DNA of 64,000 nt from a virus (IMGVR_UViG_3300033068_001495:522-64521), one strand, 5' to 3'; positions 6,344 to 58,803 are shown, numbered from the stretch's first letter. Notes: a model not told the origin generated them from the sequence alone. Made by a program: numbers and translations.

Positions 6344-6672
6344 ACACCACCTGGATCCCGTACGACTACGACCACCCCGAAGCCAACCCGCGCCCACCAC
6401 TCGACCACTGGGTCTGGGTCTACTCCGACGACAAGTACGGCGTCACCATGGCGGCCCGACCCGGGTACGTCCACTGGATCCACGTCACCGGAGACGACGA
6501 CCTCCACGTCACCCACTGGGCCCCCGTCGACCCTCCCGAACCACCACCCTCCGAGTACACGCCATTCCAACCAACCCCGTTCACCACCACACCCCTCCCC
6601 CCAGGCTGCACCGGCGAATGCGACATCATGAACCACCCCGACGAAGGATGCACCTGCCCACACCCCGACTGA
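6340..6672 (+). CDS. hypothetical protein (W..........P...HWVWV...VTHWAP pattern, Cys/His tail)
   Basis: GGAG RBS and ATGA coupling; extremely C-rich DNA. Confidence 0.55.
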   Translation: MNTTWIPYDYDHPEANPRPPLDHWVWVYSDDKYGVTMAARPGYVHWIHVTGDDDLHVTHWAPVDPPEPPPSEYTPFQPTPFTTTPLPPGCTGECDIMNHPDEGCTCPHPD

Positions 6673-8372: not shown

Positions 8373-8410
8373 GGCTGGGTACCTGGCACCCCAGCACGAG
8401 GAGCACCACC

Positions 8411-14180: not shown

Positions 14181-14347
14181 TGGTCGAGGTTGACCCGCTG
14201 CTCGTCGAGGAGATCGAAGAGGCCATGAGCCTCCCGATCGGCCACGTGAAGGACGTCCTCCCGGACGGCCACATCCGCGTGCTCCTCACGGGCGACGGGC
14301 TCGACCTGTTGGCCTTCGGCTTCCTGGCTATCAACAACGAGGAGTGA
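14180..14347 (+). CDS. small hypothetical protein (55 aa)
   Basis: MVEVDPLLVEEIEEAMSLPIGH...INNEE*; leaderless start; not in the ORF track. Confidence 0.55.
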   Translation: MVEVDPLLVEEIEEAMSLPIGHVKDVLPDGHIRVLLTGDGLDLLAFGFLAINNEE

Positions 14348-14350
14348 CAG

Positions 14351-20517: not shown

Positions 20518-20569
20518 AACTATTGACATGGGTGGAGAGCGGACCCATGATGGCCTCGTACCTGGCTGA
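20518..20569 (+). promoter_or_regulatory. AACTATTGACA promoter plus GTACCTGGCTGA UTR box
   Basis: TTGACA 20523-20528, 17 nt, CATGAT 20546-20551; box 20558-20569; GAGAGGA RBS. Confidence 0.75.
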
Positions 20570-22897: not shown

Positions 22898-22944
22898 CGA
22901 AGCCTCAGCCCGGCACGGAGCGATCCGTGCCGGTGCTTCGTTTT
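22898..22944 (+). terminator. intrinsic terminator-like hairpin
   Basis: CCGGCACGGA-GCGA-TCCGTGCCGG (22910-22933) inside a CGAAGC/GCTTCG stem, followed by TTTT. Confidence 0.6.
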
Positions 22945-28962: not shown

Positions 28963-30075
28963 ATGACCGCTCTCTACGAACTCGACGAGCTTCAGGGCCC
29001 CGAATTCCTCGGATTCATCCGGGCGATCGAGGAGCCCAACAACTTCCTCGGGACCAACTGGCTCCCGAACAAGACCGTCAACGACCTGGAGTTCGAGTAC
29101 ATCCTCGGCGCGACCCAGCAGCAGGTCATGGCGACGATCCTCGGCTGGGACTCCGAGGCTCCGCTCCACGCTCGCCAGCGTCAGGGCTCGCGCGTGTCCG
29201 GCGAACTCCCCCCGATCAAGCGCAAGGCGCGTTTCGGTGAGAAGACGCTGATCCGCTTCCTCCAGCCCCGCGCGGGATCGGCTGACGTGCAGCAGGCCAT
29301 CGACGACGTGCTGGACATGACCGTCGACCTGATCCGCTCGGTGCAGGCTCGTGCCGAGTGGCTGCGCATGCAGGCCCTCTCGGAGGACTCCGTCGTCTAC
29401 AACGCCGACGGTGTCATCTTCGACTTCAACTTCGGGATCACCGACGAGTTCCAGATCAACCTCGTGACCCAGCAGGACGGCAACGGTGACAGCGTCGCCT
29501 CCGCCTACGGGCCGGTGTGGACCGATCACGCGAACTCGACGCCGATCCAGGACATGATCACGATCTGCGACACGATCGAGGCCACGGGCAAGCCCCGTCC
29601 GGTCGAGTTCGTGGCGGGCACCGCGGCCATGGGGCACCTGCTCCAGTCGGCATCGGTGCGCGACATGATCCGTGGTTCGTCCGCCCCGGACATCATCCTC
29701 ACGACGCAGGAGTTGCAGGTCATCTTCGACCTCTACAACCTGCCGAAGCTGACCCCGTACTCGACGGTCCTCCAGATGGAGAACGCCGACGGGTCGATCA
29801 GCGACGTGCGGCCGATGGCGGCGAACAAGGCGTTCCTCGTGCCGGGTGGCGGTCCCATCGCCCCCGGGCAGTCGTCCATCGGTGCCACCCTGTGGGGCCC
29901 GACGGCCGAGTCCCGCGAGCTGATCGGCACGCCGCTCGTCACGGAGGCCCCTGGCATCTACGCCAAGACCTACGGCAAGGACGAGCCCCCGGAGGAGTAC
30001 GTCAAGGCCGCCGCGGTCCTGTTCCCATCGATGCCGGGAGCCGATCGCCTCGGCCAGATGACCCTCTGGTCGTGA
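28963..30075 (+). CDS. major capsid protein (lambda gpE-like family)
   Basis: GWDSEAPL, LPPIKRK, RAEWLRMQALS..V, DFNFG, WTD.ANSTPIQD, LWGPTAE, VKAAAVLFP; strong AGGAGG RBS. Confidence 0.88.
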   Translation: MTALYELDELQGPEFLGFIRAIEEPNNFLGTNWLPNKTVNDLEFEYILGATQQQVMATILGWDSEAPLHARQRQGSRVSGELPPIKRKARFGEKTLIRFLQPRAGSADVQQAIDDVLDMTVDLIRSVQARAEWLRMQALSEDSVVYNADGVIFDFNFGITDEFQINLVTQQDGNGDSVASAYGPVWTDHANSTPIQDMITICDTIEATGKPRPVEFVAGTAAMGHLLQSASVRDMIRGSSAPDIILTTQELQVIFDLYNLPKLTPYSTVLQMENADGSISDVRPMAANKAFLVPGGGPIAPGQSSIGATLWGPTAESRELIGTPLVTEAPGIYAKTYGKDEPPEEYVKAAAVLFPSMPGADRLGQMTLWS

Positions 30076-30187: not shown

Positions 30188-30610
30188 ATGGTCAAGGCGC
30201 GGCTCCACGACGGGCGACTCAGCAGCGGGCGCCGGGCCCGGGTCGCGACGGGCGAGCCCGTGTGCTGCGACCCGTGCGCCGACGACGGGCCAGCGATCAC
30301 GATCAACCCGACGATCACGGTGAAGATGCGCCAGCGCGACGGCTACACCGACGAGGGCGACAAGCGGTACGTGTGGTTCACGGTGGTCGAGGGTGAGGCG
30401 ATCCTGTGGGACGATCGCACCGAGGTGGATGGCTCGGCCGGGCTGACCGCGGTGAGCGCCGAAGCGACGATCCTGTACGACGGCCACGAGACGGTCGACG
30501 AGACGGCCGTCGTGCTCGTCGACGCGCAGGTGTACCGGGTGACGTCCGTCGCGCCGTGGCCCGATCGACTGGTGTTCCAGCTGGTGCGATCGTCCGACGC
30601 CGATGGCTAG
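30188..30610 (+). CDS. head-to-tail connector (stopper-like)
   Basis: Position; beta-rich with VDAQVYRVTSV; leaderless start after TACCAT (30175-30180). Confidence 0.55.
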   Translation: MVKARLHDGRLSSGRRARVATGEPVCCDPCADDGPAITINPTITVKMRQRDGYTDEGDKRYVWFTVVEGEAILWDDRTEVDGSAGLTAVSAEATILYDGHETVDETAVVLVDAQVYRVTSVAPWPDRLVFQLVRSSDADG

Positions 30611-35897: not shown

Positions 35898-36485
35898 ATG
35901 GCACCCAGCACGATCGTCGAGGCGTTCAGCCTCACCCACGCCCAGATCCTCGACGGAGCGACCGCCTTCGGCTCGGTCGGCACCGGCGCCGGAGAGTGGG
36001 GCGACATCTACGGCGTCAACGACGCGTCGCTCGACCCCGACTCGGACAGCTACGACAACGAGGGTGACGACGCCGTCCTCTCGACGTGGAACTGGCTGAA
36101 CAAGGCCGAGCTGACCGTCCAGGCTGGCTACCTGTCGTTCGCTCTGATCTCGAACCTGACCGGTCGCGCCATCAGCTCCTCGGGCACGGACGACTCGATC
36201 GTGTACGGCATGGACCTCTGGCACGAGGACGACTTCAACACGCCGCGCCGCCCGATGATCATCCGCATGCCGTCGAAGGACCACCTCGGCGCCGTCCGGT
36301 ACCTCGACATCGGCCTGTACTCCGTGTCGTTCTCGCCGATCACGTTCGACGGCCCGACCTACAAGGACGGCCTGAAGATCAACTACGGCGGCCAGGCGCT
36401 GATGAGCACCGTCGACGAGCTGGGCGTCGCGTTCGCCGACGGCAAGAAGCGCATCGGCAAGCTCATCAGCAAGCCGATCAGCTGA
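35898..36485 (+). CDS. major tail (tube) protein
   Basis: DIYGVNDASLDPD.DSYDNEGDD..LS.W; AGGAG RBS; precedes the chaperone and tape measure genes. Confidence 0.8.
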   Translation: MAPSTIVEAFSLTHAQILDGATAFGSVGTGAGEWGDIYGVNDASLDPDSDSYDNEGDDAVLSTWNWLNKAELTVQAGYLSFALISNLTGRAISSSGTDDSIVYGMDLWHEDDFNTPRRPMIIRMPSKDHLGAVRYLDIGLYSVSFSPITFDGPTYKDGLKINYGGQALMSTVDELGVAFADGKKRIGKLISKPIS

Positions 36486-47969: not shown

Positions 47970-48641
47970 ATGGCGACCGCAACCGACGTGGTAGGGCAGG
48001 CGCTGACGAAGCGAGGACGCCCGTACGTGTGGGGCGCCAAGGGCCCCGAGCAGTTCGACTGCTCCGGGCTGACGTGGTGGTCGTGCCGCCAGGAGGGCAT
48101 CGAGCTGCCCCACGGTGCGCAGAACCAGCGTGACTACCTCCGGCGCGCCGGGCTCCTGATCCCGGTGGCCGACGCGCTGCGCCAGGTGAGCATCTTGTTC
48201 CGCATCGACGAGGGCCCATCGAACGACCACGTCGCGTTCTCGCTGGGCAACGGGTCGACCATGGAAGCCCACTCGAAGGCGAAGGGCTGCAACATCTTCT
48301 CGGCGACTGTCGGCCGCCGGTGGACCCACGCCGCGCTGATCCCCGGCACGACCGCTACCCCCGAGGCCCCCGCCGCGCCGGTGCCCGGCCCGGTCGACCT
48401 CGCTGCCATCGCGTTCCTGCTCAGCGTCGCGAAGAAGCGGATCTACCGGTTCGGTGACGTCGACCCCGGCGTGAAGTTCATCCAGGCGGGCATCAACAAC
48501 CTCGACGCGTCACGCAACCTGGCCGTCGACGGCGCGTTCGGGCCCGACACCTGGAAGGCCATCGTCGACCTGCAGCGGTGGTTCGGGCTGAACATGGACG
48601 GCATCGTCGGCCCGCAGACGTGGGGCATCCTGTACCCGTGA
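47970..48641 (+). CDS. endolysin: NlpC/P60 peptidase plus peptidoglycan-binding domain
   Basis: GRPYVWGAKGPEQFDCSGL, HVAF; C-terminal VDG.FGPDT..AI..LQ...GL..DGIVGPQTW. Confidence 0.9.
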   Translation: MATATDVVGQALTKRGRPYVWGAKGPEQFDCSGLTWWSCRQEGIELPHGAQNQRDYLRRAGLLIPVADALRQVSILFRIDEGPSNDHVAFSLGNGSTMEAHSKAKGCNIFSATVGRRWTHAALIPGTTATPEAPAAPVPGPVDLAAIAFLLSVAKKRIYRFGDVDPGVKFIQAGINNLDASRNLAVDGAFGPDTWKAIVDLQRWFGLNMDGIVGPQTWGILYP

Positions 48642-48651
48642 GGAGCGACCG

Positions 48652-49128
48652 GTGAAGAAGATCCCGAAGAAGTGGCTCGACCTGCTGAAGGGCCTCGCCC
48701 GCACCGGCGTGCCCGTCGGCGTCGCCGCGGCCGTCACGTGGCTGCGAGCGCGCGGCATCATCGTCCCCGAGTGGGGCGGCCAGTACGCCATCCCGGTCGC
48801 GTCGGGCATCGCGTACTGGCTGATCGTCCGGCTCGGCGAGATCAAGCTGTCGCCGAGGTGGGGTGTCCTGCTGCTGGCCATCGGCCAACCGGTGTACGAG
48901 ACGGCCGCTCAGGCGCTCGACCCGACCACGAAGGCGGAGCTGATCGAGGTGCCCGCCACGTCCGCAACCCCCCGCGCAACCCCCCGCGTGTCGGTGTCCG
49001 GATCCGGGCCCGACGCGCAGGGCCTCGCCTCTGTTCTGGCGCCAGGTGACGACCCGAACGCCCTTGATCCAGAAGGCCCGCAGGCCCCCGGCGAACTCCC
49101 CGCGTGGGCAATTCCGCACGATCAGTAG
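48652..49128 (+). CDS. holin-like membrane protein
   Basis: Two to three TM segments directly after the endolysin. Confidence 0.65.
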   Translation: MKKIPKKWLDLLKGLARTGVPVGVAAAVTWLRARGIIVPEWGGQYAIPVASGIAYWLIVRLGEIKLSPRWGVLLLAIGQPVYETAAQALDPTTKAELIEVPATSATPRATPRVSVSGSGPDAQGLASVLAPGDDPNALDPEGPQAPGELPAWAIPHDQ

Positions 49129-49134
49129 CGCCCG

Positions 49135-49545
49135 CTGAGCGGTCCGCGATATACCTTCGCCCACGGGATCGAGGGTCCTGTACCTGGCTAGTAGCGGTCC
49201 CCCTGGCCTCCGGGGTAGGGTGACCGTCGAGGTGCTCCGTGAGGTCACTTCTCGTACCCAGCCAGGTACGCCCACGAGCCGTCACTCCTTCGGGGGTGGC
49301 GGCTCGTCTCGTTCCCCGGTAGGCGTCTCTCCGAATGCATGCGGCGAGTCCAGGCAGATCAGCACCCGCGGCCACAGGGGACGCCGGGTCCCGCCTGGCG
49401 TGCCCTCCCACGAGCATCGGAGCGTCGAGCCCCCCGGACCCCCCTGCATTGGTGGGGTTCTCCATCATCGATGGAAGGGCTCCCTCTGGGAGCCCGAACC
49501 ACCGCGACGGTGGAGGTAGAGAGTGACGCGCGCGGTACCCCGAGC
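49135..49545 (+). ncRNA. candidate large structured non-coding RNA
   Basis: About 420-nt gap without a credible ORF; stems 49180-49189/49260-49269; 15-bp hairpin with UUCG loop 49274-49307; multiloop 49456-49500; -10-like TACCTT at 49152-49157. Confidence 0.55.
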
Positions 49546-49550
49546 GACTC

Positions 49551-49610
49551 AACTATTGACACGTGTGGTAAGATGGTGGTGCGGTCGAGTTCTGGCCGCG
49601 ACCTGGCTGA
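49551..49610 (+). promoter_or_regulatory. AACTATTGACA motif plus ACCTGGCTGA UTR box
   Basis: AACTATTGACA 49551-49561; box 49601-49610; GAGGAG RBS; no clear -10 at the canonical spacing. Confidence 0.6.
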
Positions 49611-49631
49611 CATCGATACGAGGAGACGCTC

Positions 49632-49865
49632 ATGCAGTTCACCGTCACCATCCAGACCCGAGGAGGGTCGATGGAGTTCCACCGGCACGGCGAGTCCGCG
49701 GCCGGTACCACCGCCCGGCACTTCCGGGCGCTCGGCTACCCGACCGTCGTGACCGACGTGCACGGCACCCCGGTCGACATTCCGGTCGCGCCGTTCACCC
49801 CGGCCGAGCAGGCCCACTACGACCAGATGGCCGCCGCCGCCCAGCACGAGGAGGTGAACGCGTGA
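49632..49865 (+). CDS. hypothetical early protein
   Basis: GAGGAG RBS. Confidence 0.65.
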   Translation: MQFTVTIQTRGGSMEFHRHGESAAGTTARHFRALGYPTVVTDVHGTPVDIPVAPFTPAEQAHYDQMAAAAQHEEVNA

Positions 49866-50014
49866 CGAACCCACTGATCTACCCGGCGCTGTTCGCCGCC
49901 TTCGGGCTGCTGCTCGTTGCCGGTGACCTCGTGCTGGCCGCCGCCCAGCGCCGAGCCAGCACCCGCCGCCGGGCCGCACGTCGTGCGCATCCGTCTCGGG
50001 TGGGTGCACGATGA
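49862..50014 (+). CDS. small membrane protein
   Basis: GAGG RBS; TM helix plus basic tail. Confidence 0.55.
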   Translation: MTNPLIYPALFAAFGLLLVAGDLVLAAAQRRASTRRRAARRAHPSRVGAR

Positions 50015-50322
50015 TCGACCTCCTCCAGCCACCGGAGCTGCACCGCATCACCGAGCGCGACGGCGGCCCCGACCTCGATGACCTCGTCAACGTGATCCGC
50101 TACCTGCGCGAGAACGGCGTCCAGGTCGTGACGGGGACGATGGCCCGACGGATCGGTCACGAGTCCTACAACCGGCTCCACCTGTCGTGGTACCCGGGTG
50201 ACGCTTGGATGCGCCAGTTCCGACTGAACGAGGCGATCCCCGCTGAGGTCGACGAGGCCAGCAGCGCGGTGTTCGTCGGCCCGGACGGCACCGTGTACGA
50301 CGAGAACCGGGAGGCGCTGTGA
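50011..50322 (+). CDS. hypothetical protein
   Basis: ATGA-coupled. Confidence 0.6.
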   Translation: MIDLLQPPELHRITERDGGPDLDDLVNVIRYLRENGVQVVTGTMARRIGHESYNRLHLSWYPGDAWMRQFRLNEAIPAEVDEASSAVFVGPDGTVYDENREAL

Positions 50323-51434: not shown

Positions 51435-51706
51435 CCGACACCGTCGACGACGACGCGTATCTCCGGGAACGCCAGATCAGGGTCGAGTCGCTGTTCCGCC
51501 AGGTGGTGGACGAACTCGACGAGTGCGACATCGAAGTAGTCCACGAGCTGAAGGTCAGGATCGCGGCGTCGAAGCCGATGACGGCCTGCCCGCCCGGGGT
51601 CACCGAGATGTGGTGGACCGAACTCCGTAGGCTGGTCGGTGGACCGGTCATGCGGAAACGACTGTGGTCGGTACTCATCGACCAGGAAGCGAGACGATCC
51701 AGATGA
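51431..51706 (+). CDS. hypothetical protein
   Basis: GAGG RBS; GTGA-coupled. Confidence 0.55.
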   Translation: MTDTVDDDAYLRERQIRVESLFRQVVDELDECDIEVVHELKVRIAASKPMTACPPGVTEMWWTELRRLVGGPVMRKRLWSVLIDQEARRSR

Positions 51707-51903
51707 CCGACGAAGTGCGCAGGGTGAGCCCCGGCTACGAGATCCGCCGCGACGACGGCGGGCTCACCGCACGCGAGCGCCAGGTCATCGGCCTTCTCCA
51801 CGAGGGCAAGACGCAGATCTCGATCGCTGAGGAGATGGGCCTGACCCGCCAGCGCGTGTCCGCGATCGCGAAGTCCGCACGAGCGAAGATCGCCGCCACC
51901 TAA
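51703..51903 (+). CDS. LuxR / sigma-70 region 4-type HTH protein
   Basis: LTARERQVIGLLHEGKTQISIAEEMGLTRQRVSAI. Confidence 0.8.
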   Translation: MTDEVRRVSPGYEIRRDDGGLTARERQVIGLLHEGKTQISIAEEMGLTRQRVSAIAKSARAKIAAT

Positions 51904-57511: not shown

Positions 57512-58803
57512 TGCTCATCCCCAACGGGCCCAAAGGCTCCGACGCCGAAGGGTTCCCCACGCTGTACCCGTCGAGGCTCCGTGCCTACGGCGCCGCCCCA
57601 CCCCACGATCGGTACCGCGGGTGCCCCGCCCAGTACCGCGCCCGCTACGTCGACTGCGTGTGCGGCCACCCCCGCGCCGACCACCACGACGGCGCCGACG
57701 CGTGTGTCCACGCCGACGACCCCCGCGAAGGATGCCTCTGCCTCCGGTGGCGGACGGCGGTCGTCGACGTCGTCGAGCCCAACGCACCCCGCGAGTTCGG
57801 CGGCGCGATCCACGACGCCCTGTTCCACATGGAAGAGCACGCCGTCGGCCCCGAAGAGGCGCTCCAAGCTGTCTGGGAACCATCGCTCGACGCAGACAGC
57901 TACCAGGACGCCGTCGAAGTGCTCGACTCGTACCTGGCCCGCGGCGGCCCGATGGCCAAGTACGGCACCCTCGCCGTCGAGATCGAACTCGTCGCGCCGC
58001 TGTACGTCGACGAGGACTTCGGCCCGGTGTACGCCGGTGGCATCATCGACTGGCTCGGCGTCGACGTCAACGAGACGCAGATCATCCACATGGTCGACTA
58101 CAAGTCGAACGCCCGGCCGCTCGACCCCGACGAGGTCCGGAAGGATCTCCAGATGCGGGAGTACGACTGGCTGATCCATCAGTGCTGGGCCGCGCTCGGC
58201 CTGCCCGGCCGCCCGCACACCGTCGCCCACATGGACGGCATCAGGTGGAACGACGTCGAGGTCCGCTACACCGACGGCGATCGCGCCGCCTGGCAGGAGT
58301 GGGCCATCGCGGTCGCGCGCCGCATCCTGCGCGACGACCGTGGCGCACCCCAGCTGACCACCGGGTGCCGGTGGTGTCCCGTCCGGCTCGACTGCCCCGC
58401 CTACCTCGACCTGCCCGGCGTAGCCCAGTCCATCGCGGCGCGCTCCACCGTCACGTCGCTCGACGACCTGTGGGCCTGGCGGAAGAAGGCCGACGAGGCC
58501 CGCAAGGTGCTGGAGGAAGGCGTCAAGGACGTCGACCGGGTGTTCCGCGAGCGCGTCATCGACGAAGGCCCAGTCTCCATGGACGGCCAGGTGTGGCGCG
58601 AGGAGGACGACCTGAAGGACACGCTCGACATGGAACAGCTCCACGACGTGCTCGGCGACGCCCTCTTCTACGACATCGCCAACGCCACGAAGAAGGACGT
58701 CGAACAGATCGCCCGTGCGCACCCCGACAAGAAGGCCGCGATCATGGACTGCTACACGAAGCTGATCACTGGCAAGAAGGTCACGAGGAAGAAGGCGAAA
58801 TGA
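57508..58803 (+). CDS. PD-(D/E)XK exonuclease (RecB/Cas4-like)
   Basis: SRL..Y...CPAQY..RY, GGAIHDAL, GIIDWL, VDYKS, QMREY, CRWCPV..DC. Confidence 0.88.
   Translation: MMLIPNGPKGSDAEGFPTLYPSRLRAYGAAPPHDRYRGCPAQYRARYVDCVCGHPRADHHDGADACVHADDPREGCLCLRWRTAVVDVVEPNAPREFGGAIHDALFHMEEHAVGPEEALQAVWEPSLDADSYQDAVEVLDSYLARGGPMAKYGTLAVEIELVAPLYVDEDFGPVYAGGIIDWLGVDVNETQIIHMVDYKSNARPLDPDEVRKDLQMREYDWLIHQCWAALGLPGRPHTVAHMDGIRWNDVEVRYTDGDRAAWQEWAIAVARRILRDDRGAPQLTTGCRWCPVRLDCPAYLDLPGVAQSIAARSTVTSLDDLWAWRKKADEARKVLEEGVKDVDRVFRERVIDEGPVSMDGQVWREEDDLKDTLDMEQLHDVLGDALFYDIANATKKDVEQIARAHPDKKAAIMDCYTKLITGKKVTRKKAK

What the first reader, a model, noticed from the sequence alone, without database searches (positions are those of the whole stretch)
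49135..49545. About 400-nt structured non-coding region carrying the antisense of the early-gene 5'-UTR box
Seen: between the holin and the first early promoter there is no credible ORF but dense pairing, including a 15-bp hairpin with a UUCG loop (49274-49307), a GGTTC/GAACC multiloop with GGGCTCCC/GGGAGCCC (49456-49500), and a -10-like TACCTT at 49152. It contains CCAGCCAGGTAC (49258-49269), complementary at 11 of 12 positions to GTACCTGGCTGA in the UTRs at 20558 and 51947, and an internal copy of the box (49180-49189) that can sequester it in cis. Inference: a phage regulatory RNA made with the late or lysis transcript could pair next to the RBS of box-containing early genes and silence them, with a built-in cis switch. 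I do not recognise it as a known Rfam family.
Basis: partly seen in the sequence, partly recalled or inferred. Interest (0 to 1): 0.78.

Follow-up and report, generated by a model that had tools for sequence, protein, structure and literature searches.

The report
Leader/anti-leader RNA hairpin plus terminator
After the lysis genes of this uncultured soil-type phage lies a non-coding, folded RNA module that holds both a copy and a mirror copy of the short tag in front of the phage's operon-first genes; two cultured Arthrobacter phage lineages have the same layout built on their own different tag, so it probably controls those genes, but no experiment shows this.

Summary
The gap 49129-49631 is non-coding: GC is 0.66-0.68 at all three codon positions, against GC3 0.88-0.94 in genes. 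It holds a sense box copy (49180-49189) and an antisense copy (49258-49269); both together appeared in 0 of 5,000 shuffles.

The antisense stretch is longer than reported. 49241-49272 mirrors a whole leader, from box to Shine-Dalgarno. Its best predicted partners among 7,966 windows are the phage's own leaders.

The structured core is 49165-49316. A decoy-leader/anti-leader hairpin is followed directly by the strongest hairpin of the window (49274-49307), which is more stable as + strand RNA.

No close relative could be fetched, so there is no covariation test. However, Arthrobacter phages KellEzio and DanielleIgnace carry the same layout at the same genome junction, built on their own tag (GGCGAAAGG). 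The KellEzio unit is 100% identical in Kitkat between diverged flanks.

The anti-leader is fully paired in cis. If the decoy arm is blocked, it pairs with the next gene's leader in all three phages.

Best reading: an RNA switch tied to the leader tags, doubling as the end of the late transcript. The mechanism is unproven.

The scan has flagged loop-type anti-leader RNAs in other phages before. This is a closed-stem variant.

The parts
48652..49128 (+). Last gene of the late/lysis block: 158-aa membrane-type protein, holin-like by position only
   Evidence: It follows the NlpC/P60 plus PG-binding endolysin 47970-48641. It has a coding GC3 of 0.88. No Pfam family matches; one PHROG of unknown function does. 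Its only relative among 5.8 billion proteins is P0002 at 58% identity.
49152..49157 (+). Candidate -10 element TACCTT (TANNNT type) for a separate start of the module
   Evidence: TACCTT plus 7 nt plus GGGATCGAG parallels TAAGAT plus 7 nt plus CGGTCGAG at the 49554 promoter (sequence). In KellEzio and DanielleIgnace a TAGACT, identical to the -10 of their own promoters, lies 31-42 nt before the sense box. This is inference only; the consensus scan finds no sigma-70 promoter here.
49165..49316 (+). The RNA module (152 nt): closing helix 49165-72/49309-16, decoy/anti-leader hairpin, then the strong hairpin
   Evidence: MFE is -93.2 kcal/mol with z = -5.7 on +, against -76.5 and z = -4.5 on -. 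There are 6 G.U pairs on + and 2 on -. The fold is stable in three sequence contexts.
49180..49189 (+). Sense ('decoy') copy of the leader box GTACCTGGCT
   Evidence: It is a perfect 10-bp inverted repeat with 49260-49269. Its probability of being unpaired is 0.
49229..49234 (+). SD-like GAGGUG of the decoy arm, paired with CACUUC 49246-51
   Evidence: Pairing table of the MFE. It is separated from the box by an inserted hairpin at 49191-49227.
49241..49272 (+). Anti-leader arm: the reverse complement reads as box + spacer + ACGAGAAG (SD-like) + GACC
   Evidence: 23 of 28 positions match the leader at 20555, and 19-27 matches are found with the other leaders. RNAduplex against 7,966 + strand windows ranks leaders 20545 and 54201 first and second; 51945, 14313, 62121 and 49593 fall in the top 14 (background mean -18.9, sd 4.7).
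49274..49307 (+). 15-bp hairpin with a C(UUCG)G loop: terminator-like end of the late transcript, or a clamp
   Evidence: It is the strongest perfect hairpin on either strand of the 64-kb window, at -29.2 kcal/mol on + against -19.9 on -, because of two G.U pairs. No T tract follows.
49317..49449 (+). Linker with no significant structure, mildly C-rich
   Evidence: z = -0.1 to -1.5. The C/G ratio reaches at most 1.55, below the window's 95th percentile of 1.65, so it is not a convincing rut site.
49450..49512 (.). Three-way junction made of two perfect palindromes (CCATC..GATGG; GGGCTCCC..GGGAGCCC), function open
   Evidence: z = -4.1 on + and -3.6 on -, equal on both strands; inverted repeat I9. 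It ends about 40 nt before the promoter. It could be a second hairpin terminator or a set of DNA sites.
49551..49561 (+). AACTATTGACA promoter element of the next operon
   Evidence: One of five identical copies in the window. The same motif occurs 9 times in DanielleIgnace.
49599..49631 (+). True leader of the first gene after the gap (box 49601-49610, SD GAGGAG 49621-26, ATG 49632)
   Evidence: When the decoy arm is blocked, 49241-49267 pairs with 49601-49631. The anti:decoy duplex is -35.9 and the anti:leader duplex -37.0 kcal/mol.

Best explanation
49165-49316 encodes a + strand RNA module of about 150 nt that sits at the end of the late (lysis) transcript and may also have its own start. 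It has three parts. The first is a decoy copy of the phage's operon leader (box 49180-89, SD-like 49229-34). The second is a contiguous mirror copy of a whole leader (49241-72), which pairs with the decoy. The third, directly behind it, is the strongest hairpin of the window (49274-49307), which ends or clamps the transcript. I read this as a leader/anti-leader RNA switch. In the ground state the anti-leader is held by the decoy. When the decoy is displaced, the anti-leader can cover the box and Shine-Dalgarno sequence of a true leader: in cis that of the next gene (49601-49631) on read-through or own-promoter transcripts, and possibly in trans those of the six or seven other box genes. Possible triggers are whatever binds leaders, such as a 30S subunit or a box-binding protein, or processing. 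Shown: the anatomy, the non-coding status, the strand bias, the statistical link to the leaders, and the recurrence of the layout in kin phages. Inferred: transcription, the trigger, and any effect on translation.
For: Non-coding status. Sense plus antisense box together in 0 of 5,000 shuffles. The anti arm mirrors a full leader, 23 of 28 positions, and its top predicted targets genome-wide are the leaders. + strand RNA is favoured: -93.2 against -76.5 kcal/mol, and the 15-bp hairpin -29.2 against -19.9. The same layout occurs at the same late-to-early junction in KellEzio (30400-30541) and DanielleIgnace (29227-29372), with their own tag GGCGAAAGG(T): a sense-like arm, an exact antisense arm and a 15-16-bp hairpin, units of 142-152 nt, each more stable on +. 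In KellEzio the antisense 8-mer occurs once on the + strand of the 58.9-kb genome, in this gap, against 16 sense copies. The KellEzio unit is 181/181 identical in Kitkat while the flanks are 63% and 40% identical. With the decoy blocked, the anti arm pairs with the next gene's RBS in all three phages. In the window the two states are nearly isoenergetic, -35.9 against -37.0. Cofolding with leaders gains 3.4-11.5 kcal/mol with 10-31 intermolecular pairs.
Against: There is no transcript data. There is no covariation test, because no close relative could be retrieved. The anti-leader is 100% paired in cis, with an opening cost of 15.8 kcal/mol. In DanielleIgnace and KellEzio the closed hairpin is far more stable than any alternative (-45/-21 and -32/-21), and cofolding with leaders gains nothing through the box; a trigger or processing step must therefore be assumed. 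In the window the next gene has its own promoter between the module and its leader, so most of its mRNAs would lack the module. The hairpin has no U tract. The shared layout could reflect a structural hairpin whose arms came from a leader duplication.
Confidence: 0.42

Rival explanations
1. It is a plain end-of-operon element. The long hairpin and the 15-bp hairpin terminate the late transcript, protect its 3' end or serve as an RNase III processing site. The arms look like a leader only because the hairpin arose by inverted duplication of a nearby promoter-leader. There is no regulatory link to the box genes.
For: Position directly after the last late gene. The strongest hairpin in the window. 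The anti-leader is never exposed. In kin phages the closed form is overwhelmingly stable. Long imperfect hairpins are typical RNase III substrates (T7 early region, lambda sib; my own knowledge).
Against: It does not explain why three lineages with two different tags each keep a sense and an exact antisense copy of their own tag at this one place. It does not explain why the antisense motif is otherwise absent from the + strand of KellEzio. KellEzio already has a canonical T-tract terminator right after gp39, upstream of the unit. The unit is 100% conserved between mosaic flanks.
Confidence: 0.28
2. It is a stand-alone small RNA acting purely in trans. Made late, it pairs with the box and SD of all tagged leaders and shuts them off, the decoy arm being a lid opened by a helicase, a nuclease or strand invasion.
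For: Top-ranked predicted targets are the leaders. Net cofold gains in the window. A candidate -10 lies upstream. DanielleIgnace has a second antisense copy in the loop region of a hairpin at 36061. Cluster K1 mycobacteriophages carry one reverse start-associated sequence in the apical loop of a covarying hairpin (PMC3203893).
Against: The seed is buried in a 10-bp perfect helix. There is no net gain in the two kin phages. Actinobacteria have no known Hfq-type chaperone (my own knowledge).
Confidence: 0.15
3. It works at the DNA level. The two box copies are an inverted pair of binding sites for a phage regulator that also binds the box near transcription starts; or the region is an origin or packaging site.
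For: In four or five of seven leaders the box lies 4-10 nt after a -10-like hexamer, so it could be an operator over the start site. A 79-aa sigma-70 region 4 / LuxR-type HTH gene lies nearby at 51664-51903. The ends of cluster AT genomes could not be determined (PMC5513430).
Against: G.U pairs make all three units 10-17 kcal/mol more stable as + strand RNA than as the complement. In the Arthrobacter phages the tag is the ribosome-binding site itself, an RNA-level signal. The box keeps a closer spacing to the SD (3-12 nt) than to the -10 (4-24 nt). There is no AT-rich stretch, no iterons and no skew change.
Confidence: 0.08
4. It is a decoy or sponge. The sense arm titrates a factor that binds leaders, such as a translational regulator or the 30S subunit, and the antisense arm only tunes its availability.
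For: The sense arm copies the box and an SD-like element without a usable start codon. The same holds in kin phages.
Against: The decoy is double-stranded in the ground state. The antisense arm is the better-conserved, contiguous copy of a leader.
Confidence: 0.05

Closest known systems
c4 antisense RNA of phages P1/P7 (immI operon; Citron & Schuster 1990, as cited in PMC8198154)
   Same: It is a regulatory RNA encoded on the same strand as, and upstream of, its target. It pairs with a leader or RBS region further down the same transcription unit and blocks expression of the genes behind it.
   Different: No match to any Rfam family, C4 included. By my own knowledge, c4 shows its antisense segments in exposed regions and has one target operon. 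Here the antisense is locked by a decoy arm and matches 7-8 dispersed leaders.
Start-associated sequences (SAS/ESAS) of Cluster K mycobacteriophages (Pope et al. 2011, PMC3203893; function still called unknown in PMC11373665 and PMC12699233)
   Same: A conserved asymmetric tag lies just upstream of the start codons of a subset of operon-first, non-structural genes in one orientation. One unexplained reverse copy per K1 genome is not linked to a gene start. In Adephagia it sits in a non-coding gap, in a hairpin loop.
   Different: The tag sequence differs (GGGATAGGAGCCC against ACCTGGCTGA or GGCGAAAGG). The cluster K reverse copy is loop-exposed near the right genome end, whereas here it is stem-locked at the late-to-early junction. 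Homology between the two was not tested.
Fold-back and anti-antisense RNA switches (hok mRNA tac/fbi elements; RBS-sequestering expression platforms of riboswitches and RNA thermometers); from my own knowledge
   Same: Three-element logic: sequestering element, competitor element and RBS, with two mutually exclusive helices.
   Different: No ligand, temperature element or processing site has been identified. Here the competitor is a copy of a regulon-wide tag.
Highly expressed non-coding RNAs in intergenic gaps of actinobacteriophages (Rhodococcus phage WC1 nc_1-3; D29, Kampy, L5; PMC10986025)
   Same: Non-coding, intergenic and in actinophages. One of them (WC1 nc_2) lies mid-genome, between WC1_29 and WC1_30. 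Function is unknown.
   Different: Those were found by RNA-seq, and no leader complementarity was reported. No sequence comparison was made here.
Intrinsic (factor-independent) terminator
   Same: A G+C-rich perfect hairpin directly behind the last gene of an operon, more stable in the transcript's sense.
   Different: No U tract follows. A second long hairpin with leader content is fused to it.

Membership tests
Rfam C4 antisense RNA (P1/P7) | Match to the family covariance model | tested here: not met
   No Rfam family reaches its gathering score in the window. At E up to 10 only mascRNA-menRNA (E 1.5) and Actino-pnp (E 6.7) appear.
Rfam C4 antisense RNA (P1/P7) | Antisense segments encoded on the same strand as, and upstream of, the target leader | tested here: met
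   49241-49272 is complementary to 49601-49631 on the same strand, 330 nt downstream.
Rfam C4 antisense RNA (P1/P7) | Antisense segments accessible for pairing | tested here: not met
   The probability of being unpaired is 0 for 49260-49269, and the opening energy is 15.8 kcal/mol.
Intrinsic terminator | Stable G+C-rich hairpin at the end of an operon | tested here: met
   15 bp, -29.2 kcal/mol, the strongest in the window.
Intrinsic terminator | Run of U directly after the stem | tested here: not met
   The tail is CUCGUUCCCC; the terminator scan finds 0 sites in 48900-49800.
SAS-type start-associated tag system (Cluster K) | Conserved asymmetric motif in one orientation shortly before the start codons of several genes | tested here: met
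   ACCTGGC(TGA) lies 3-12 nt before the SD at 8382, 20561, 49602, 51950, 53136, 54211 and 62139. There are 17 copies with up to 2 mismatches against 3.4 expected.
SAS-type start-associated tag system (Cluster K) | The SAS consensus GGGATAGGAGCCC itself | tested here: not met
   The tag here is GTACCTGGCTGA.
Base-pairing small RNA (trans-acting or 3'-UTR-derived) | A discrete transcript is made | not testable with these tools
   The phage is uncultured and no RNA data are available.
Base-pairing small RNA (trans-acting or 3'-UTR-derived) | Structure supported by compensatory changes among relatives | tested here: inconclusive
   No alignable relative was found in IMG/VR, metagenomes, GTDB genomes or the phage collection. 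The KellEzio unit is invariant in Kitkat and BeatusComedenti, so it carries no information either.
tRNA / tmRNA | ARAGORN detection | tested here: not met
   0 genes in the window.
Protein-coding gene | Codon-position GC pattern of this genome | tested here: not met
   0.66-0.68 in all frames. All gap ORFs have GC3 of 0.60-0.79, against 0.88-0.94 in genes.

The most novel reading that the evidence does not exclude
A distinct class of phage riboregulator. A single 'decoy-leader / anti-leader / clamp hairpin' RNA at the late-to-early boundary reads or sets the translational state of all operon-first genes that carry a shared leader tag. It co-evolves with that tag across phage lineages: ACCTGGCTGA here, GGCGAAAGG in KellEzio-like Arthrobacter phages, and perhaps the SAS of Cluster K mycobacteriophages, whose single reverse copy has been unexplained since 2011.
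Probability: 0.3. Interest if true: 0.8.

Novelty: new variant of a known kind. Interest (0 to 1): 0.62.

Why it matters
Conserved tags in front of start codons (SAS in Cluster K, and the tags seen here) are a long-noted, unexplained feature of actinobacteriophage genomes. If each such phage also carries one RNA that mirrors its tag, that would explain how a phage switches a whole set of genes together after transcription. The link made here to KellEzio, Kitkat, DanielleIgnace and Adephagia matters because these phages are cultured and have tractable hosts. The idea can therefore be tested directly at the bench, which is not possible for the uncultured phage of this window.

Tried and rejected
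1. Close relatives for covariation. Megablast and blastn of 48600-50100 against phages gave nothing. The holin, endolysin and portal proteins and a portal profile against IMG/VR gave only unrelated lysins and Kitkat itself. A holin profile and a promoter-box pattern gave only chance hits in metagenomes and GTDB genomes.

2. A scan of IMG/VR for GGCGAAAGG..CCTTTCGCC hairpins gave only unrelated repeats.

3. Rfam at permissive thresholds gave chance-level matches only.

4. Coding gene: rejected. This includes a 27-codon ORF at 49239-49322 with GC3 of 0.59, counted by hand.

5. Origin or packaging site: there is no AT-rich stretch, no iterons and no skew change.

6. Rho-utilisation site in 49340-49450: the C/G ratio reaches only 1.55, which is unexceptional for this genome, so the idea was dropped.

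7. Transcription attenuator: the strong hairpin persists in both states in all three phages, so alternative pairing does not remove it.

8. Viral contig L026 shares CGGTCGAGTT..CGACCTGGCTGA with the 49554 leader but is otherwise unlike this phage and has no antisense copy.

Full report
CONTEXT. The window is almost the whole of a 64.5-kb IMG/VR virus record. It has about 69% G+C, and every gene with a coding signature lies on the + strand. Its portal protein is 39-43% identical to those of Arthrobacter phages KellEzio, Kitkat, BeatusComedenti (cluster AT) and DanielleIgnace, and to nothing else in the phage collection. The finding lies in the 503-nt gap between a holin-like gene (48652-49128), which follows the endolysin, and the next gene (49632-49865).

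OBSERVATION.
- The gap is non-coding. GC at the three codon positions is 0.66-0.68 in every frame, while six real genes show GC3 of 0.88-0.94 and GC2 of 0.39-0.53. No gap ORF approaches that pattern.
- The box is over-represented in the window: 17 copies with up to 2 mismatches against 3.4 expected.
- In seven places ACCTGGC(TGA) lies 3-12 nt before a GAGGAG-type ribosome-binding site and a start codon. Five of these are behind the identical promoter element AACTATTGACA. An eighth, weaker leader of this kind is at 14323.
- In 5,000 dinucleotide shuffles of the gap, a sense copy as good as the one at 49180 arose in 1.5%, an antisense copy as good as the one at 49258 in 0.1%, and both together never.

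ANATOMY. Structure is not spread evenly over the 400 nt.
- The core is 49165-49316, with -93.2 kcal/mol and z = -5.7 on the + strand, against -76.5 and z = -4.5 on the - strand.
- Its fold is the same in three sequence contexts. An 8-bp closing helix (49165-72 with 49309-16) encloses two arms.
- Arm 1 is a long interrupted hairpin. The sense box (49180-89) pairs perfectly with 49260-69, and an SD-like GAGGUG (49229-34) pairs with CACUUC (49246-51).
- Arm 2 is the 15-bp C(UUCG)G hairpin at 49274-49307. It is the strongest perfect hairpin on either strand of the whole window. It is 9 kcal/mol better in the + sense because of two G.U pairs.
- 49317-49420 is no more structured than shuffles.
- 49450-49512 is a three-way junction of two perfect palindromes, equally stable on both strands, and its role is open.

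THE ANTISENSE STRETCH IS A MIRRORED LEADER. The reverse complement of 49241-49272 reads as box, spacer, ACGAGAAG and GACC. That is a whole leader, matching the one at 20555 in 23 of 28 positions. I scanned this arm against 7,966 40-nt windows of the + strand with RNAduplex. The two best partners are the leaders at 20545 (-40.5 kcal/mol) and 54201 (-39.5). Four more leaders rank within the top 14 (background mean -18.9, sd 4.7). So the link to the leaders is stronger than the 11-of-12 match first reported.

IS THE ANTISENSE AVAILABLE? No. In the ensemble, 49260-69 is paired with the decoy at probability 1, and opening it costs 15.8 kcal/mol. Cofolding the module with each leader still gives a net gain of 3.4-11.5 kcal/mol with 10-31 intermolecular pairs.

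RELATED SEQUENCES. No close relative could be obtained. A covariation test on this RNA was therefore impossible. The distant, cultured kin are informative in another way.

KellEzio:
- It has a 497-nt gap at the same junction, between tail fibre gp39 and gp40, which is highly structured (z = -6.5 on +, -4.8 on -).
- Its promoters carry a different leader tag, ccGGCGAAAGGa, which includes the ribosome-binding site. There are 16 + strand copies.
- The antisense 8-mer CTTTCGCC occurs once on the + strand of the whole genome, inside this gap, as a 12-of-12 mirror of the tag. There it pairs with a sense-like copy in a long hairpin, followed two bases later by a 16-bp hairpin.

DanielleIgnace:
- It shares AACTATTGACA promoters with the window.
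- At the same junction it has TTGGCGAAAGGT paired with ACCTTTCGCCAA in a long hairpin, again followed two bases later by a strong hairpin.

Common features of the three units:
- They are 142-152 nt long, and each is 10-17 kcal/mol more stable as + strand RNA, with more G.U pairs.
- The KellEzio unit is 181/181 identical in Kitkat, although the flanking gp39 end is 63% identical and the downstream genes are different (40%).
- In both Arthrobacter phages a TAGACT, the -10 of their own promoters, lies 31-42 nt before the sense arm. The window has TACCTT at a comparable distance (22 nt), and the leader-like sequence behind it resembles that of the 49554 promoter.

Two lineages with different tags thus keep a sense copy and a mirror copy of their own tag at the same genomic place. 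That is the main argument that the hairpin is functionally tied to the leaders and is not only a structural stem.

MECHANISM.
- When the decoy arm is made unavailable in silico, the anti-leader arm pairs with the leader and ribosome-binding site of the next gene in all three phages, with the strong hairpin held in the loop of that helix.
- In the window the two states are nearly isoenergetic: anti:decoy -35.9 and anti:true leader -37.0 kcal/mol.
- In the Arthrobacter phages the closed state wins by 11-24 kcal/mol, and cofolding with leaders gives no gain through the tag.
- I therefore favour a three-element RNA switch (decoy, anti-leader, true leader) that needs a trigger acting on the decoy, or a processing step.
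- It would act in cis on the first gene after the junction, and perhaps in trans on the other tagged leaders.
- In the window the module would also serve as the end of the late transcript, since no other hairpin follows the holin-like gene.
- None of this has been shown experimentally. My confidence in this specific mechanism is about 0.4. My confidence that the module works as + strand RNA and is linked to the leader tags is higher, about 0.7.

RIVALS.
- A plain terminator, stabiliser or RNase III site whose arms derive from a duplicated leader. This remains a serious rival at about 0.28. It explains the buried antisense but not why the arm tracks each phage's own tag.
- A DNA-level pair of protein sites, or an origin: about 0.08. 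This is disfavoured by the strand asymmetry, by the tag being the ribosome-binding site in the kin phages, and by the absence of origin-like features.
- A decoy for a leader-binding factor: about 0.05.

COMPARISON WITH WHAT IS KNOWN.
- The closest mechanism is the c4 antisense RNA of P1/P7, which lies on the same strand upstream of its target leader (Citron & Schuster 1990, cited in PMC8198154). The module is not a member of that family: Rfam gives no match, and the antisense is not exposed.
- The tags themselves resemble the start-associated sequences of Cluster K mycobacteriophages, whose function is still unknown (PMC3203893, PMC11373665, PMC12699233).
- Pope et al. noted one reverse-oriented SAS per K1 genome with no gene start beside it.
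- In Adephagia I find that copy at 58682, in the 432-nt non-coding gap between gp92 and gp93, in the apical loop of a hairpin.
- The region is conserved in 182 phage records.
- In an 11-phage alignment the stem shows five pairs with double changes. The loop is CCTCCTATCC in K1 phages and a different pyrimidine run in Amgine and Unicorn, and it is absent in Yuna and MacnCheese. This is a lead, not proof.
- Highly expressed non-coding RNAs in actinophage gaps are on record without a known function (PMC10986025).

EARLIER NOTES OF THIS SCAN. The scan has flagged loop-type 'anti-leader' RNA hairpins in several unrelated phages. Those are unchecked AI notes, and I do not count them as evidence. They do mean that the general idea is not new to the scan. 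The case here differs in that the anti-leader is locked by a decoy arm, and in that it can be tied to cultured phages.

VERDICT. This is a new variant of a known kind (same-strand anti-leader RNA). Interest is moderate to high, because it offers a bench-testable explanation for start-associated tags in actinobacteriophages.

Noticed in passing
window 51664-51903: A 79-aa protein matching sigma-70 region 4 (E 1e-8) and LuxR/GerE HTH domains. It ends exactly where the AACTATTGACA promoter at 51902 begins. It is a candidate phage factor for the TTGACA-type promoters.
   Followed up: no
window 14313-14350: An eighth leader of the box type, TTCCTGGCT..ACGAGGAG..ATG, without the AACTATTGACA element. 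It ranks fifth among predicted partners of the anti-leader arm.
   Followed up: partly
L050 (DanielleIgnace MT889387) record 29116-29349: The annotated 'gp33' overlaps the leader/anti-leader hairpin and the hairpin behind it. The true next start is probably the ATG at about 29407, behind AGGCGAAAGAG. The ORF may not be a gene.
   Followed up: partly
DanielleIgnace record 36027-36218: A second antisense copy of the RBS tag (TCCTTTCGCCGGG) lies in the apical part of a long hairpin, right after gp51 and before the promoter at 36174. The motif GTTTCACGGGAAAC is shared with the junction region at 29103.
   Followed up: no
L081 (Adephagia JF704105) record 58560-58800, and alignment A5: The single reverse-oriented SAS of Cluster K1 phages sits in the loop of a covarying hairpin downstream of an invariant TAGACT. 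Late transcription is reported to begin near this right end (PMC11373665). The region is conserved in 182 records.
   Followed up: partly
L046 (KellEzio) 30365-30545 against L051 (Kitkat): A non-coding unit that is 100% identical between two phages whose flanking genes are 63% identical on one side and replaced on the other: an island of conservation at a mosaic boundary.
   Followed up: yes
L026 (IMGVR_UViG_3300028837_003278) 6375-6450: An unrelated 53% G+C viral contig has AACTATTGACA, a TATAAA -10 and a leader CGGTCGAGTT..CGACCTGGCTGA almost identical to the window's 49554 leader. The match goes beyond what the search pattern required and is unexplained.
   Followed up: partly
window 22910-22933: A canonical intrinsic terminator (10-bp stem, GCGA loop, T-rich tail) just before the portal gene. 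The phage therefore does use T-tract terminators elsewhere, unlike at 49274-49307.
   Followed up: no
window 49554-49600: At this promoter the spacing from TTGACA to the best -10-like hexamers (TAAGAT, GATGGT) is only 7-10 nt, against 17-18 nt at the other four copies. Either the -10 is elsewhere or AACTATTGACA is not acting as a -35 here.
   Followed up: no
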